A stretch of DNA of 64,000 nt. It comes from a virus. The stretch is from positions 49,468 through 113,467 of the IMG/VR virus record IMGVR_UViG_3300012685_000001; one strand, 5' to 3'. The position numbers were made by a program, and so were the translations under genes. Each line of letters starts with the position of its first letter. Within the stretch, counting starts at the first letter, position 1. Shown here piece by piece: positions 811-45,104 of this stretch. The notes beneath the pieces are model-generated. The model made no database searches, was not told where the DNA came from, and worked only from the letters and a program-made list of their open reading frames with translations.

Positions 811-2391
811 TTACTTTGCAACCCAAGGCCACGTCTGTGATATTCCAGCTTCTATCAAAGGAATCATCTGGAAACCCTTGTCAGTCAGTCCACCAAAGGT
901 GTGACGCTTCTTGGAACCAGATTCACTCTGGCCAACAGCATACCCTCCGAGGTTCCAGGTGTAGACAGGAACATTAGCAGGTACAGAAGCAACAGGATCT
1001 CCACCGTAACCATTGTACTGCTCATCAGTGATGATCACAATACGGTCATGGTTCTTGAAGTTGCCGTTGACTGCTCCACGGGTATCAGTTCCACCCATGC
1101 TCTTGAACTTACTCAGCATAGGAAGAACAGACTGACCCTTACGGAAAGAAACTGTTTCGAAAGAAGGTCCACGCCATGCGTCACCAAACTGTACCAGATC
1201 TGCATTTTCAGCACGAAGTGCTAGTGCTGAACCAAAGATAGCAGCCGTGTCAGCTCTGTCAAGTCCCTGAGTTCCTCCGTTAGAAGTAAACATGGAACCA
1301 GAACGGTCAACCAGAACCAGTGTACGTCCCTTCAGAGAAGGCACATTGCTCAGAGAAGCCTCAAGGGCAGTCTCAAGCGCCGCAGCGATCTGAAGAGTAT
1401 CCTTGTTGGCCTGGTAAGCAGCAAGGAATCGGAAAGGGAACTGCTTACTCTTGGCAACCTGCGCAGGATCAGCAAGTTTTGCAAGAACATTCTGCATCAC
1501 TGGGACACTAATTCGGGCATCCTGGAAGTTCCGCAAGTTTCGAAGAAGTGCCATATATCCCATGGAAGGAATAACAGCTTCCCAGGCAACAGCATCCATA
1601 GGACCCTGAAGCCATCCGGAAAGAGCTTCCCAAGTCATTCCAGCATTCTTCATACGAGTAGCGTCCAGAAGGCCAGTAACTATTGCGCCCTTACGGTTTT
1701 CTACTGGAATACGCATTATATACTTTCGCGTATTAATCATCTCTAGTACGCCTGGAACAATCTCTACATTTCCATAACGACTAGCAAGAGCGTACTTGAA
1801 CAACTGCTCCTGAATCTCGTTATCAGGCTTAGGGTGAGTCAACTGAAGAACATCCGCGAAACGGTATCCCACAGAAGTATCGTACTTAAGAAGACTGTAC
1901 TCGTTATACAACTTCTTGGCACCATCCGCAACACCCTTCTTAAGGAAGGATGGGAAGTTCTTCCCGTACTTGGACTCGTAATAAGCCAGCACCTCACCAG
2001 GCTCATCAGCACGAGCCATAGAAGCGGCTACAAGGCCCCTAGGAGTCCCATTCAGCTGTCCTGAGTCCCAAAGGGCCTTGGCACCTTCTACACCCGCTAC
2101 AATCGCCGCTGAACGCATGAAGGCAGAGTTACGAAGCCAATAGACGAAACCGGCAAACCAGAATGAATTAGTTACCGCTACTTCGGCACACAACTTGGAG
2201 AAACGGTCATCACGGCTCTTGGCGTTCTCATAGAACGTATCCTGACCGACAAAGTTGGAAACTGCTAGCAAGAACAACTCAGATTGCTTAGTGCGCACAA
2301 AACCTGCCTTGAAGTCAGCATTCAGTGCTGCCTGAGTAGTCTTGACAGGAGAAGTAGTTCCTGTCTTCTTTACCTGATTGAACTTGCCCAT
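811..2391 (-). CDS. rsr: Ro60-like RNA-binding protein (TROVE + vWA)
   Basis: TROVE motifs (TFYE, RADEPGE, TWE, MALLRNLRN, QFPFRF) and vWA MIDAS 'VLVDRSGSM', 'GGTD', 'IITDEQ'. Confidence 0.95.
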   Translation of the reverse strand: MGKFNQVKKTGTTSPVKTTQAALNADFKAGFVRTKQSELFLLAVSNFVGQDTFYENAKSRDDRFSKLCAEVAVTNSFWFAGFVYWLRNSAFMRSAAIVAGVEGAKALWDSGQLNGTPRGLVAASMARADEPGEVLAYYESKYGKNFPSFLKKGVADGAKKLYNEYSLLKYDTSVGYRFADVLQLTHPKPDNEIQEQLFKYALASRYGNVEIVPGVLEMINTRKYIMRIPVENRKGAIVTGLLDATRMKNAGMTWEALSGWLQGPMDAVAWEAVIPSMGYMALLRNLRNFQDARISVPVMQNVLAKLADPAQVAKSKQFPFRFLAAYQANKDTLQIAAALETALEASLSNVPSLKGRTLVLVDRSGSMFTSNGGTQGLDRADTAAIFGSALALRAENADLVQFGDAWRGPSFETVSFRKGQSVLPMLSKFKSMGGTDTRGAVNGNFKNHDRIVIITDEQYNGYGGDPVASVPANVPVYTWNLGGYAVGQSESGSKKRHTFGGLTDKGFQMIPLIEAGISQTWPWVAK

Positions 2392-2393
2392 TC

Positions 2394-2597
2394 CTATTCT
2401 CCTATTTTCTCGAAGCGCTGCATACGCTTGCCATCACGTTCTACATACTCAACAAACTCATCCAAGGGACGCACTGAAATAATACCTTCTCCGTATTGCG
2501 CTGCATAAACTACCACATCTCTCCAGGAGCCACTTTCCTTTGCAAGGAACAGGACTCTATAAAGATTTCCCTTAAAATGTCTGTACAGCCCATGCAT
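2394..2597 (-). CDS. DUF1653-domain protein
   Basis: 'GLYRHFKGNLYRV..A..S....VVY..YG....VRP..EF......RF' signature. Confidence 0.85.
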   Translation of the reverse strand: MHGLYRHFKGNLYRVLFLAKESGSWRDVVVYAAQYGEGIISVRPLDEFVEYVERDGKRMQRFEKIGE

Positions 2598-2682
2598 TGT
2601 ACCTCCTATTTGTAGTACGTTATAAAGACAAAAATAATCCCCTAAAGTGCACTTTCGTGGACCTAGGGGAGGATTAAAAATA

Positions 2683-2791
2683 AGTTCCTAGAAAAAACGG
2701 TGTGAGGTATATAGGCGCCGTGCCTTAAGGGGACTCGAACCCCATGGGTTTCATATCAATTGAAGTAACCCCGTACCTTCGCATCGGAACT
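2683..2791 (-). ncRNA. Y RNA-like gene 1 (T-arm-only module)
   Basis: Terminal stem AGUUCC/GGAACU, shared GAUGCGAAG..GUUACUUC..UUUCUAG motif, internal GGGG-UUCGAGU-CCCC T-arm; upstream of rsr. Confidence 0.75.
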
Positions 2792-2799
2792 AAAAAATA

Positions 2800-2874
2800 T
2801 ACCCTAGAAAAAACGCCTACAGTGCTTTTTGATTACCAATTAATTTGAAGTAACTGTTGGCTACGCATCGGGTA
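2800..2874 (-). ncRNA. Y RNA-like gene 2 (minimal, no tRNA-like module)
   Basis: Terminal stem UACCC/GGGUA, GAUGCGUAG..GUUACUUC..UUUCUAG motif, upper stem GCC-A-ACAGU/ACUGU-A-GGC. Confidence 0.7.
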
Positions 2875-2892
2875 AAGCTTATTAAATTTTAA

Positions 2893-3033
2893 GACAACTA
2901 GAAAGAATCGATAAAAGTGCTTTATATACCGCTGCTCTGCCTCTGAGCTATCAACCATAGAATTGGCTGAGAAGGATTCGAACCTTCGTCACGCGGTTCC
3001 CTGTGAAGTAACTCTTATCTTCGCATCGCTGTC
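2893..3033 (-). ncRNA. yrlA: YrlA-type Y RNA (permuted tRNA-like domain)
   Basis: Same stem motif, then T-arm GAAGG-UUCGAAU-CCUUC, closed acceptor-like hairpin UCAGCCA/UGGUUGA and D-arm GCUC-AGAGGCA-GAGC, in T-acceptor-D order. Confidence 0.88.
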
Positions 3034-3101
3034 AAACTTAATAGATCTAGGCTCGGTTTCGACGTATCGCAAGATACCCTTGACAGCGTTCAAGATCTAA
3101 G

Positions 3102-3173
3102 CTCCCCGAGCTGGATTCGAACCAACAACCGGTCGATTAACAGTCGACTGCTCTGCCGTTGAGCTATCGGGGA
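3102..3173 (-). tRNA. tRNA-Asn(GUU)
   Basis: Cloverleaf; GUCGA-CUGUUAA-UCGAC. Confidence 0.95.
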
Positions 3174-3883: not shown

Positions 3884-4027
3884 ATAAGTGACTGTCTGGA
3901 TTCTCAATCCAGCGCCACTACACAGGTCTTTAGCGTTTAGTCGGATCATATCTTGGCTTTTATTGTACCCCGGAAGTACCTTCCAAGTCAAGACGACCGT
4001 GCCAGGAGTTACTGTGCAGAACCTAAG

Positions 4028-4099
4028 AGCCCCTTCCCGGATTCGAACCGAGCACTTGGCTTTACAAGAGCCGCGCTTTTCCTACTAAGCTAAAGGGGC
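4028..4099 (-). tRNA. tRNA-Thr(UGU)
   Basis: Anticodon loop CUUGUAA. Confidence 0.9.
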
Positions 4100-4106
4100 A
4101 AGAGCC

Positions 4107-4135
4107 ATTGTACTAGCCCAATGGCAGGCTGTCAA
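4107..4135 (-). promoter_or_regulatory. strong sigma70-type promoter in front of tRNA-Thr
   Basis: TTGACA-N17-TACAAT, 7 nt before the tRNA 5' end. Confidence 0.75.
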
Positions 4136-44496: not shown

Positions 44497-45104
44497 TTAT
44501 GAATATCATCGTTTTCCAGAAGGACCTTGGAACTCGTGCGTTGCTCTCGTAGGTACACTATCATTCCTTCAGCAGCACGTCCACCAGGAACAGCCTTCGA
44601 ACCCTGAGTGTACAGCTCCTCCCGTAGCTCCTGGACATTGAAGTTGTAGTAGTCACCCATGTAAAGGATGGGAACAGTGTACAGGTTCGAGATTTCAGAA
44701 CGAGCTTCAGTAGGATGCAGAGTCTCAATCCAGCGAGGCGCATTGAAGAGACTGAAACGCTTCTCCGTCAAACCATAACCTCGCTGAATACCTGAACCCC
44801 ACCACTCGCCGTAGTGGTCACCCACACCCAGAATCTTAACGAGCTGAGTAGCATTGTCATACACCCAGCGAGCGAATCCGAAGTTGTCCTTTTCCTTTAC
44901 AGGCTGAAGGAATCGCTTACGTGACTGCGCCCAGATCGTGTACTGTACTCCGTCGATTGAGACCGTGTCAACCTGATCGGAACGGTCATCGTCAATATTG
45001 AACAGACGAATACGAACCGCAGAATTGGTGCCGTCAATCTTCTCAGTTACAACTACCCTCTCCTTGGAAAGGCGAGGAATAGAAGGCCAGGCTTGAAATT
45101 CCAT
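44478..45104 (-). CDS. RNA ligase (Rnl2-family adenylation domain)
   Basis: Motif I 'TEKIDGTNS', 'QSR', 'DNFGFA.WV', 'GEWWG.GIQ', 'EGMIV', C-terminal K. Confidence 0.88.
   Translation of the reverse strand: MEFQAWPSIPRLSKERVVVTEKIDGTNSAVRIRLFNIDDDRSDQVDTVSIDGVQYTIWAQSRKRFLQPVKEKDNFGFARWVYDNATQLVKILGVGDHYGEWWGSGIQRGYGLTEKRFSLFNAPRWIETLHPTEARSEISNLYTVPILYMGDYYNFNVQELREELYTQGSKAVPGGRAAEGMIVYLREQRTSSKVLLENDDIHKWEIKS

What the first reader, a model, noticed from the sequence alone, without database searches (positions are those of the whole stretch)
811..3033. Phage Ro60 with three modular Y RNAs: one shared handle, three different payloads
Seen: upstream of rsr and the DUF1653 gene, on the same strand, are three tandem RNAs (2893-3033, 2800-2874, 2683-2791). 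Each has a different closing helix but the same internal motif, 5' GAUGCG(A/U)AG / 3' UUUCUAG, plus GUUACUUC at the top of a second helix with compensatory changes. The distal parts differ: a full permuted T-acceptor-D tRNA mimic, a short AU-rich loop, and a lone T-arm. Established: bacterial Rsr binds Y RNAs, YrlA mimics tRNA, and Y RNA tethers Rsr to PNPase in Deinococcus. Inference: the phage builds three RNPs from one Ro60, using interchangeable adaptor RNAs to recruit different partners (nucleases, RNA ligase) or to decoy tRNA-targeting defences. The two non-YrlA copies would be missed by tRNA or YrlA scans.
Basis: partly seen in the sequence, partly recalled or inferred. Interest (0 to 1): 0.85.

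Follow-up and report, generated by a model that had tools for sequence, protein, structure and literature searches.

The report
Three Y RNA genes beside phage Ro60
A Streptomyces-type phage carries three small RNA genes in a row next to its Ro60 (rsr) gene, all sharing one Ro-binding-type handle but carrying different outer parts; the feature is real, but it is a new example of the known bacterial Y RNA arrangement (YrlA plus YrlB-like partners), not a new kind of system.

Summary
On the minus strand, 2893-3033, 2800-2874 and 2683-2791 are three tandem units. Each has its own closing helix, the motifs GAUGCG(A/U)AG and UUUCUAG, a second helix that covaries, then GUUACUUC and a different distal module. 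The modules are a permuted T/acceptor/D tRNA mimic, a short hairpin, and a lone T-arm.

A covariance model built only from the short unit type recovers the other two and nothing else in the 113-kb phage genome. Relatives (BRock-like Streptomyces phages and viral contigs) carry 3-6 such units, with many compensatory changes. Between the window and its closest relative, the two short units are 98-99% identical, against 74% at fourfold sites of rsr, so they are not decaying copies.

The same architecture sits upstream of rsr in 74 of 80 viral loci and 79 of 80 Streptomyces/Kitasatospora loci, usually as 2-3 units. This matches published YrlA plus YrlB (Chen et al. 2014), which already proposed modular Y RNAs giving Ro60 several partners.

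These are new members of a known kind that Rfam does not capture. Rsr binding, discrete expression and distinct partners remain untested. The scan's own first-stage notes describe this same stretch of this genome again; nothing on other DNA was seen.

The parts
2893..3033 (-). Y RNA unit 1 (type B), YrlA-type. Closing stem GACAGC/GUUGUC, GAUGCGAAG...UUUCUAG handle, helix 2, GUUACUUC, then a permuted tRNA-like core: T-arm, 7-bp acceptor-like stem-loop, D-arm.
   Evidence: (39 predicted pairs, 14 with compensatory changes in 7 orthologues).
2800..2874 (-). Y RNA unit 2 (type D), short form. Closing stem UACCC/GGGUA, the same handle, helix 2, GUUACUUC forming a small hairpin, an A-rich strand, no tRNA-like arms.
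   Evidence: 95.8 bits with model R1; 98.7% identical to L123.
2683..2791 (-). Y RNA unit 3 (type E), T-arm form. Closing stem AGUUCC/GGAACU, the same handle, helix 2, GUUACUUC hairpin, T-arm GGGGUUCGAGUCCCC, and a mini hairpin GGC-ACGGC-GCC. The acceptor and D arms present in relatives are absent.
   Evidence: 98.2% identical to L123; same truncated form with T-stem covariation in L138, L141, L142.
2638..2670 (-). Hairpin followed by a U-rich tract (about 2625-2637), between the last unit and DUF1653/rsr. Terminator-like or a processing site. An equivalent hairpin lies before rsr in relatives.
   Evidence: folds of the window, L001 and L123. The simple terminator scan did not call it.
2394..2597 (-). 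DUF1653 gene (67 aa), inserted between the array and rsr only in this phage.
   Evidence: PF07866, E 1e-21; no homologue in any other rsr locus fetched.
811..2391 (-). rsr, the Ro60 orthologue (526 aa, TROVE + vWA).
   Evidence: PDB TROVE proteins 9l5y/9kop at E 7.5e-22 and D. radiodurans Rsr 2nvo at E 2.7e-5; 62-64% identity to the Ro-like proteins of BRock-like Streptomyces phages.
3034..3100 (-). Conserved 67-nt hairpin element between tRNA-Asn and unit 1. It occupies the place of unit A of relatives and has no handle motifs. Function unknown.
   Evidence: 65/67 identical to L123, and the two differences form one compensatory U-A to C-G change in the closing stem; found only in the window genome and the L123/L136/L110 contig.
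3101..3173 (-). tRNA-Asn(GUU), the last tRNA before the Y RNA array. The order tRNA-Trp, tRNA-Asn, array, rsr, tRNA-Ala, tRNA-Lys is conserved in relatives.
3962..4135 (-). Two sigma-70-like promoter matches (4135-4107 and 3991-3962) upstream in the same tRNA operon. They are candidate start points for a polycistronic tRNA/Y RNA precursor.
   Evidence: 11/12 and 10/12 consensus matches. These are consensus matches only; 2 were found against 3.3 expected in shuffles.

Best explanation
The 351-nt stretch 2683-3033 (minus strand) encodes three paralogous Y RNAs of the actinobacterial YrlA/YrlB lineage.

**Structure (shown).** Each RNA pairs its 5' and 3' ends into a unit-specific closing stem. 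This stem presents a conserved handle, 5' C-GAUGCG(N)AG with 3' UUUCUA-G. A variable but always paired second helix and the motif (G)UUACUUC follow.

**Binding (inferred).** The handle is the docking site for the phage Rsr ring. It resembles the GNCGAAN0-1G / GGUCCGA motif at the equivalent position of known Y RNAs.

**Distal modules (shown).** They differ as follows.
- Unit 1 is a YrlA-type permuted tRNA mimic.
- Unit 2 is a minimal hairpin form.
- Unit 3 keeps only a T-arm plus a small GG-containing hairpin.

**Expression (inferred, by analogy with M. smegmatis YrlA/YrlB).** The RNAs are made as part of the phage's tRNA operon transcript and cut out of the precursor. They are stabilised by Rsr binding. 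They then give one Rsr several RNP forms: gating its cavity, or tethering it to host partners such as PNPase or tRNA-binding enzymes. This would act in RNA quality control or decay during infection.
For: **Structure**
- Per-type consensus folds of 7-8 orthologues show 14, 3 and 10 pairs with double compensatory changes.
- In the pooled 26-unit alignment, 92.7% of cells are paired and the covariation score is 0.448, against 0.116 or less for slid partners and 0/500 shuffles.
- An anchor-based test without model fitting used 66 units from 16 genomes with 18 different closing-stem sequences. The mean uninterrupted stem is 5.6 bp, against 1.8 bp with mismatched partners.

**One family**
- Model R1, built from the short type only, finds units 1 and 3 full-length (37.1 and 26.3 bits). 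It finds nothing else in the window or the whole genome.
- Model R2 finds untrained type-A units and divergent units in other clades.

**Selection**
- Against the closest relative L123, unit 2 is 98.7% and unit 3 is 98.2% identical. Fourfold sites of rsr are 73.8% identical, tRNA-Asn 82%, and the unit 1-unit 2 spacer carries a 14-nt indel.
- The T-arm-only form recurs in three further relatives (L138, L141, L142) with T-stem covariation.

**Link to Rsr**
- Units lie on the rsr strand just upstream of rsr in 74/80 viral loci (204 units, against 4 on the opposite strand).
- The same holds in 79/80 Streptomyces/Kitasatospora-type loci (181 against 6).

**Link to known Y RNAs**
- Unit 1 matches the Rfam YrlA core, and orthologues align to the whole model.
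- Published probe sequences for the Rsr-bound M. smegmatis YrlA and YrlB contain CACUUC/GACUUC next to a T-arm, as here (PMC4201824).
Against: - No expression, end-mapping or Rsr-binding data exist for any of these phage RNAs.
- The handle is not an exact GNCGAAN0-1G: it reads UGCG(A/U)AG.
- Rfam's YrlA model aligns its 5' GNCGAANG region to helix 2 plus UACUU, not to the outer GAUGCG motif. It is therefore unresolved which conserved element contacts Rsr.
- Unit 1 scores far below Rfam's gathering threshold.
- Single-sequence folding energies are not better than shuffles (z -1.7, -1.1, -0.3).
- High identity to L123 extends into the downstream hairpin (about 96%). A recent recombination block could explain part of the conservation of units 2-3.
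- A terminator-like hairpin separates the array from rsr, so co-expression with rsr is not assured.
Confidence: 0.8

Rival explanations
1. Only the YrlA-type unit 1 is a functional Y RNA. Units 2 and 3 are truncated, decaying duplicates with no role of their own.
For: Unit 3 has visibly lost the acceptor and D arms that its orthologues in BRock, Alone3, pSt2308 and GiJojo retain. The window has 3 units where relatives have 4-6, so units are gained and lost.
Against: Units 2 and 3 are the best conserved parts of the locus against L123, at 98-99% versus 74% at neutral sites. Unit 2 orthologues are present in every BRock-like relative examined, with compensatory changes. The truncated T-arm form is kept in at least five genomes with T-stem covariation. 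Short handle-only units of about 70 nt are the commonest unit type at 80 viral rsr loci.
Confidence: 0.06
2. The units act in cis rather than as free RNAs. They could be leader, autoregulatory or processing elements of the tRNA-rsr transcript, for example Rsr binding its own upstream handles to control rsr expression or 3' processing of the tRNA operon.
For: The units are always immediately upstream of rsr on the same strand. They are separated by only 8-18 nt and followed by a conserved hairpin with a U tract before the coding genes.
Against: In M. smegmatis the equivalent upstream RNAs are processed from one precursor into discrete Rsr-bound RNAs (PMC4201824). The hairpin with U tract would end most transcripts before rsr. 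The diversity of payload modules has no obvious role in a leader.
Confidence: 0.08
3. The repeats work at the DNA level, as reiterated promoters or protein-binding sites. In unit 1 of relatives, TTGACA lies 17 nt before GATACT, which resembles a -35/-10 pair.
For: The TTGACAGC closing-stem strand of unit 1 is invariant in all relatives. Its spacing to (G/A)TACT is promoter-like.
Against: Only unit 1 has a TTGACA. Every unit's 5' flank is complementary to its own 3' flank 60-140 nt away, with 18 different sequences. Helix 2 covaries. The promoter scan calls nothing in 2683-3033 of the window.
Confidence: 0.02
4. They are tRNA genes or tRNA pseudogenes of the phage tRNA array.
For: They are embedded in an 18-tRNA array. 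T- and D-arm sequences are tRNA-like. ARAGORN calls the 5' half of the orthologous unit E as tRNA-Ser(gct) in Alone3 and tRNA-Arg(cct) in GiJojo, and these calls are in the GenBank records.
Against: ARAGORN and the Rfam tRNA model give no call in the window's units. The arm order is permuted (T, acceptor, D). The fortuitous acceptor pairing in Alone3 and GiJojo is absent in pSt2308 and BRock. The handle motifs are found only at rsr loci.
Confidence: 0.03

Closest known systems
YrlA (Rfam RF02553; Chen et al. 2014, PMC4201824; structure in Wang et al. 2018, bioRxiv 10.1101/312249)
   Same: Unit 1 lies within 4 kb of rsr on the same strand, as YrlA does. It has a T-arm, an acceptor-like stem-loop and a D-arm in permuted order, closed by a long stem formed from the 5' and 3' ends. 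It has a 7-bp acceptor-like stem, as in M. smegmatis YrlA. YrlA was already reported in 22 phages.
   Different: Unit 1 scores 31 bits against a gathering score of 69. The phage RNA has an extra outer module (closing stem plus GAUGCGNAG/UUUCUAG) that the Rfam model does not cover. Its motif is UGCG(A/U)AG rather than GNCGAAN0-1G.
M. smegmatis YrlB and the other 'second' Y RNAs (S. Typhimurium YrlB, D. radiodurans Yrn2)
   Same: These are additional Rsr-bound RNAs encoded next to YrlA/Yrn1 and, in M. smegmatis, processed from the same precursor. M. smegmatis YrlB has a possible T-arm (compare unit 3). Yrn2 and the YrlBs are hairpins with small loops (compare unit 2). The published YrlB probe sequence contains GACUUCAAGGUUCGA, the same ACUUC-then-T-arm layout.
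   Different: No family model exists, and homology of units 2 and 3 to those RNAs was not tested directly. The M. smegmatis locus could not be fetched. Here three units, and up to 9 in other viral contigs, share an explicit common handle.
Metazoan Y RNAs bound by Ro60 (Stein et al. 2005, as cited in PMC4201824)
   Same: The architecture is modular: a terminal stem carrying a conserved Ro-binding motif (GGUCCGA, against GAUGCGA here), plus variable effector loops. Several paralogous Y RNAs serve one Ro60.
   Different: There was no significant match to Rfam Y_RNA in the evalue-mode scan. The 3' strand motif and bulge geometry are not demonstrably the same.
Chromosomal rsr loci of Streptomyces/Kitasatospora
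   Same: They have 2-3 tandem units with the same layout and the same three payload types: about 138-nt tRNA-like, about 73-nt short, and about 100-115-nt T-arm-only.
   Different: The host handle reads GGUGCG(N)AG...GAUCUCG, against GAUGCG(N)AG...UUUCUAG in the phage. The Rsr proteins are only 50-54% identical.

Membership tests
Bacterial Y RNA (Rsr-associated ncRNA) | Encoded close to rsr (within about 4 kb) on the same strand | tested here: met
   The units end 86 nt upstream of DUF1653 and 292 nt upstream of rsr, on the same strand. The same placement is seen in 74/80 viral and 79/80 bacterial rsr loci.
Bacterial Y RNA (Rsr-associated ncRNA) | Long stem formed by pairing of the RNA's 5' and 3' ends | tested here: met
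   Closing stems of 5-6 bp plus helix 2 are present in all three units. Covariation is shown.
Bacterial Y RNA (Rsr-associated ncRNA) | Conserved Ro-binding motif near the 5' end (GNCGAAN0-1G in YrlA/YrlB; GGUCCGA in vertebrates) | tested here: inconclusive
   GAUGCG(A/U)AG is invariant at the right place, but it is UGCGAAG/UGCGUAG, not GNCGAAG. The Rfam alignment places its GNCGAANG region on helix 2/UACUU instead.
Bacterial Y RNA (Rsr-associated ncRNA) | Physically bound by Rsr, with accumulation dependent on Rsr | not testable with these tools
   This needs RIP, EMSA or Northern analysis in an rsr mutant.
YrlA (RF02553) | Reaches the Rfam gathering score (69 bits) | tested here: not met
   Unit 1 scores 31.4 bits in a local match to model positions 23-85. 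Orthologues score 30.7-38.1 bits, and L125 scores 54.8 bits.
YrlA (RF02553) | tRNA-like domain with T stem-loop, acceptor-like stem-loop and D stem-loop in that order, with conserved T- and D-loop nucleotides | tested here: met
   The cmscan alignment shows GGUUCGAAUCC, a 7-bp stem-loop and UAGCUCAGAGGCAGAGC. All three arms covary in 7 orthologues.
YrlB-like second Y RNA | Additional Rsr-bound RNA adjacent to YrlA that lacks the full tRNA-like domain (hairpin or T-arm only) | tested here: inconclusive
   The architecture of units 2 and 3 fits the descriptions in PMC4201824. No family model exists, no direct comparison with the M. smegmatis locus was possible, and Rsr binding is untested.
tRNA | Canonical cloverleaf recognised by ARAGORN or Rfam RF00005 | tested here: not met
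   There are no calls inside 2683-3033.

The most novel reading that the evidence does not exclude
The phage handle (GAUGCG...UUUCUAG) has diverged from the Streptomyces host handle (GGUGCG...GAUCUCG) together with its Rsr (about 52% identity). The phage would then run a private, orthogonal Rsr/Y RNA system. Its three payloads would have separate jobs during infection. For example, the tRNA mimic and the minimal T-arm 'elbow' could tether Rsr to, or act as decoys for, host tRNA-directed nucleases or processing enzymes, while the short form gates Rsr. The number and mix of units (3 to 9 across phages) would be tuned to the host.
Probability: 0.15. Interest if true: 0.7.

Novelty: new member of a known kind. 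Interest (0 to 1): 0.45.

Why it matters
**Annotation.** Two of the three RNAs, and the outer handle of the third, are not captured by Rfam. They are unannotated or wrongly annotated in public phage records, as tRNA-Ser or tRNA-Arg, or as tiny hypothetical ORFs.

**A usable definition.** The session yields a simple diagnostic architecture: closing stem, G(A/G/U)UGCG-N-AG, helix, xUACUUC, payload, clade-specific 3' motif. It finds about 200 candidate Y RNAs at 80 viral rsr loci and about 180 at 80 actinobacterial loci. That is enough material for a proper family model of 'short' Y RNAs.

**Biology.** The finding offers a small, genetically tractable phage system, with cultured BRock-like Streptomyces phages. 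It could test the long-standing idea that different Y RNAs give Ro60 different partners, and what Ro60 does for a phage. It does not reveal a new kind of system.

Tried and rejected
- The Rfam gathering scan of the window gave only tRNAs. The evalue-mode scan gave only a sub-threshold YrlA core hit for unit 1 and noise for the rest.
- Single-sequence folding z-scores were uninformative.
- A pattern scan of viral contigs returned mostly single chance hits. Only the multi-hit loci were useful.
- An exact search for the published M. smegmatis YrlB probe complement in genome contigs found nothing. The direct comparison with the experimentally validated locus therefore failed.
- I tried to derive a consistent base-pairing scheme between the 5' motif and the clade-specific 3' motifs (UUUCUAG, GAUCUCG, GACCACG). 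No register works in all clades, so I make no claim about the fine structure of the handle.
- I first equated GUUACUUC with the published conserved YUAY. The Rfam alignment instead aligns UACUU to the consensus AUGCU and leaves the consensus CUAc unmatched, so I dropped that equation.
- The promoter reading of TTGACA-17-GATACT was rejected as a general explanation; see the rivals.
- DUF1653 was checked as a possible conserved partner. It is absent from all other rsr loci fetched.
- RtcB, RNase PH (PNPase) and CCA-adding enzyme families are absent from the phage genome.
- Literature searches found no paper describing arrays of 3 or more Y RNAs in phages. The library lacks most subscription-journal reviews, so this absence is weak.
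Full report
**Setting**

The window is the right-hand 64 kb of a complete 113,467-bp virus record with direct terminal repeats. Its left end carries a minus-strand array of 18 tRNA genes. Inside that array lie rsr (811-2391, 526 aa) and a 67-aa DUF1653 gene (2394-2597) directly upstream of it.
- rsr matches Pfam TROVE at E 4.9e-17 and has a VWA_2 match.
- Its PDB relatives are TROVE proteins 9l5y/9kop and D. radiodurans Rsr 2nvo.
- The nearest cultured relatives are the BRock-like Streptomyces phages BRock, Alone3, LuckySocke, GiJojo and pSt2308, with Rsr 62-64% identical.
- These share the gene order tRNA-Trp, tRNA-Asn, a non-coding gap of about 580-710 bp, rsr, tRNA-Ala, tRNA-Lys.

I anchored on GATGCG and on the G of CTAG, then extended the flanking complementarity. 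Each unit has these parts in order:
- a unit-specific closing stem (GACAGC/GUUGUC, UACCC/GGGUA, AGUUCC/GGAACU);
- C-GAUGCG(A/U)AG on the 5' side;
- a second helix of different sequence;
- GUUACUUC;
- a payload;
- the 3' strand of helix 2;
- UUUCUA-G on the 3' side.

The composite 5' pattern occurs three times in the window and never in 100 shuffles.

The payloads differ.
- Unit 1 has a T-arm, a 7-bp acceptor-like stem-loop and a D-arm. This is the only part that Rfam recognises (YrlA, 31.4 bits, E 6.5e-5, gathering score 69).
- Unit 2 has a small hairpin started by UACU, followed by an A-rich strand.
- Unit 3 has a T-arm plus a short GGC-ACGGC-GCC hairpin.

**Evidence that these are structured RNAs of one family**

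Relatives carry the same units in the same order, but more of them. I labelled five types A to E, and the window has B, D and E.

Covariation is consistent across the analyses.
- Consensus folding of orthologues gives 14 of 39 (type B), 3 of 17 (type D) and 10 of 21 (type E) pairs with changes on both sides that keep the pair. These include helix 2 and all tRNA-like arms.
- A covariance model built from type D alone (R1) finds the window's units 1 and 3 end to end, at 37.1 bits (E 1e-5) and 26.3 bits (E 3e-3). It finds nothing else in the window or the whole genome.
- On the pooled 26-unit alignment, 92.7% of cells pair and the covariation score is 0.448. Slid partners give 0.116 or less, and 0 of 500 shuffles reach it. 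That alignment is fitted to the model, which favours the structure.
- I therefore repeated the closing-stem test using anchors only. It used 66 units from 16 BRock-like genomes with 18 different 5-nt stem sequences. The mean uninterrupted pairing is 5.6 bp, against 1.8 bp when 5' and 3' flanks of different units are combined.

**The short units are not decaying copies**

I compared the window with viral contig L123 (Rsr 82% identical in protein). Nucleotide identity by element:

| Element | Identity to L123 |
|---|---|
| Fourfold-degenerate sites of rsr | 73.8% |
| tRNA-Asn | 82% |
| Spacer between units 1 and 2 | carries a 14-nt indel |
| Unit 1 | 90% |
| Unit 2 | 98.7% |
| Unit 3 | 98.2% |

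- The truncated T-arm-only form of unit 3 also occurs in L138, L141 and L142. There the T stems differ but stay complementary, and the GGC-AYGGN-GCC hairpin is conserved.
- BRock, Alone3, pSt2308 and GiJojo keep full T, acceptor and D arms in that unit.
- One caveat: the hairpin downstream of unit 3 is also about 96% identical. A recombination block may therefore add to the similarity.

**Generality**

A looser definition of the unit was G-N-UGC(G/C), then xUAC(U/C)UC within about 25 nt, and a closing stem of at least 5 bp. I applied it to 80 viral rsr loci fetched with an Rsr alignment.
- It finds 204 units on the rsr strand and 4 on the opposite strand, nearly all within 1 kb upstream of rsr.
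- 74 loci have at least one unit, 66 have at least two, and 34 have at least three. The maximum is nine.
- The commonest layout is a short unit of about 70 nt followed by a YrlA-type unit of about 136 nt.

Cultured Gordonia phages (VanLee, Neville) and Streptomyces phage Kradal show the same arrays.

The 80 best bacterial matches are almost all Streptomyces or Kitasatospora, with a few other actinomycete genera (Rsr 50-54% identical).
- They carry 181 units on the rsr strand against 6 on the other.
- The usual number is 2-3 per locus, of the same three payload types.
- The 5' motif and xUACUUC are conserved across all of these. The 3' motif is clade-specific: UUUCUAG here, GAUCUCG in hosts and some contigs, GACCACG in others.

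**Relation to what is known**

Chen et al. 2014 (PMC4201824) reported the following.
- YrlA lies near rsr in 254 bacteria and 22 phages.
- S. Typhimurium, M. smegmatis and D. radiodurans each have at least two Y RNAs.
- M. smegmatis YrlA and YrlB lie upstream of rsr and come from one precursor.
- YrlB has a possible T-arm, and each species has a hairpin-type Y RNA.
- The authors proposed that extra Y RNAs let Ro60 form RNPs with more components.

Wang et al. 2018 (bioRxiv 312249) describe Y RNAs as modular, with a Ro60-binding stem plus an effector module.

- an explicit shared handle;
- the finding that Rfam's YrlA model covers only helix 2 plus the tRNA-like core (L123 positions 2564-2673 of unit 2549-2688);
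- the finding that all BRock-like YrlA-type units score 30-38 bits, below the threshold;
- the size of the arrays in actinophages.

I found no paper describing such arrays. The searchable library omits most subscription reviews, so this is weak evidence of absence.

**Mechanism: shown and inferred**

Shown:
- three paralogous, selected, structured elements with a common terminal module and different distal modules, tied to rsr;
- one of them is a YrlA-type tRNA mimic.

Inferred from the characterised homologues:
- transcription with the tRNA operon (promoter-like sites at 4135-4107 and 3991-3962; unit spacers of only 18 and 8 nt);
- excision from the precursor;
- docking of Rsr on the handle;
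- stabilisation by Rsr;
- payload-specific tethering or gating.

Other points:
[quoted passage not shown] This is the fate reported for M. smegmatis YrlA.
- The T-arm plus GG-loop hairpin of unit 3 could preserve a tRNA-elbow-like T-loop/D-loop contact. That is speculation.
- Which conserved motif contacts Rsr is unresolved.
- The phage encodes no RtcB, PNPase-type domain or CCA-adding enzyme, so partners would be host proteins.
- It does encode a PF09414 RNA ligase (window 44538-45059, minus strand) and an AAA_33 kinase outside the window. Neither is linked to rsr.
- A hairpin with a U tract at 2638-2670 separates the array from DUF1653/rsr.

**Verdict**

The finding is real, well supported by comparative evidence, and correctly described. 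I file it as new members of a known kind, with practical value for annotation and as an experimental system.

Noticed in passing
window 3034-3100 (-): A 67-nt element lies between tRNA-Asn and unit 1. It is 97% identical to L123, and its only two differences form one compensatory U-A to C-G change in its closing stem. It has no Y RNA handle motifs and occupies the slot of unit A of relatives. Function unknown.
   Followed up: partly
L001 2862-2935 (Alone3), L004 2859-2933 (GiJojo), L132 1204-1275 (VanLee): GenBank 'tRNA-Ser(gct)', 'tRNA-Arg(cct)' and probably 'tRNA-Arg(tct)' are the 5' halves of YrlA-type Y RNA units. The handle strand, the hairpin after UACUUC and the T-arm are read as a cloverleaf. 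ARAGORN reproduces the first two calls, and the equivalent units in pSt2308 and BRock are not called. The VanLee case was judged by eye only.
   Followed up: partly
L134 963-1373 (Gordonia phage Neville gp88-gp90): Three annotated hypothetical ORFs of 132-153 nt directly upstream of rsr overlap tandem units with GAUGCG...GUUACUUC...T-arm. They are probably Y RNA genes, not proteins.
   Followed up: partly
L126 1563-1726; L003 5162-5325; L001 5055-5287: The Rfam manA RNA motif (RF01745) sits inside the tRNA arrays of relatives, at 57.1 bits (above the gathering score of 55.2), 49.7 bits and 47.8 bits. None reached threshold in the window.
   Followed up: no
window 3031-3036 and orthologous positions in L001-L004: The 5' strand of unit 1's closing stem is an invariant TTGACA(GC). 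In relatives it lies 17 nt before GATACT, a promoter-like -35/-10 pair embedded in the RNA gene. It might be an internal promoter or a coincidence.
   Followed up: partly
window 44538-45059 (-); G000:23-427 (-), outside the window: The phage encodes an RNA_ligase family (PF09414) protein of 214 aa and an AAA_33 kinase-like protein. These are possible RNA repair enzymes, not adjacent to rsr. In Streptomyces phage Kela an annotated RNA ligase gene lies directly upstream of rsr (L133 729-1481).
   Followed up: no
L214 1282-2550: This viral contig has nine tandem handle-bearing units upstream of rsr, the largest array seen.
   Followed up: no
L138 about 1870-1960 and L142 about 1900-1990: A conserved element of roughly 90-130 nt (CUUGAUAGAAGG...CCCUUCUAUCA) lies between units A and B in two relatives. 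It is absent from the window and has an unknown function.
   Followed up: no
window 2394-2597 (-): The DUF1653 gene between the Y RNA array and rsr is unique to this phage among all rsr loci fetched. Even its closest relative L123 lacks it, so it is a recent insertion and not part of the conserved module.
   Followed up: yes
L123 7398-7477: A fragmentary tmRNA (RF00023) match of 37.2 bits, below the gathering score of 47, lies in the relative's tRNA array. An earlier first-stage note reports an 82-nt mini-tmRNA-like element just outside this window in the same genome.
   Followed up: no
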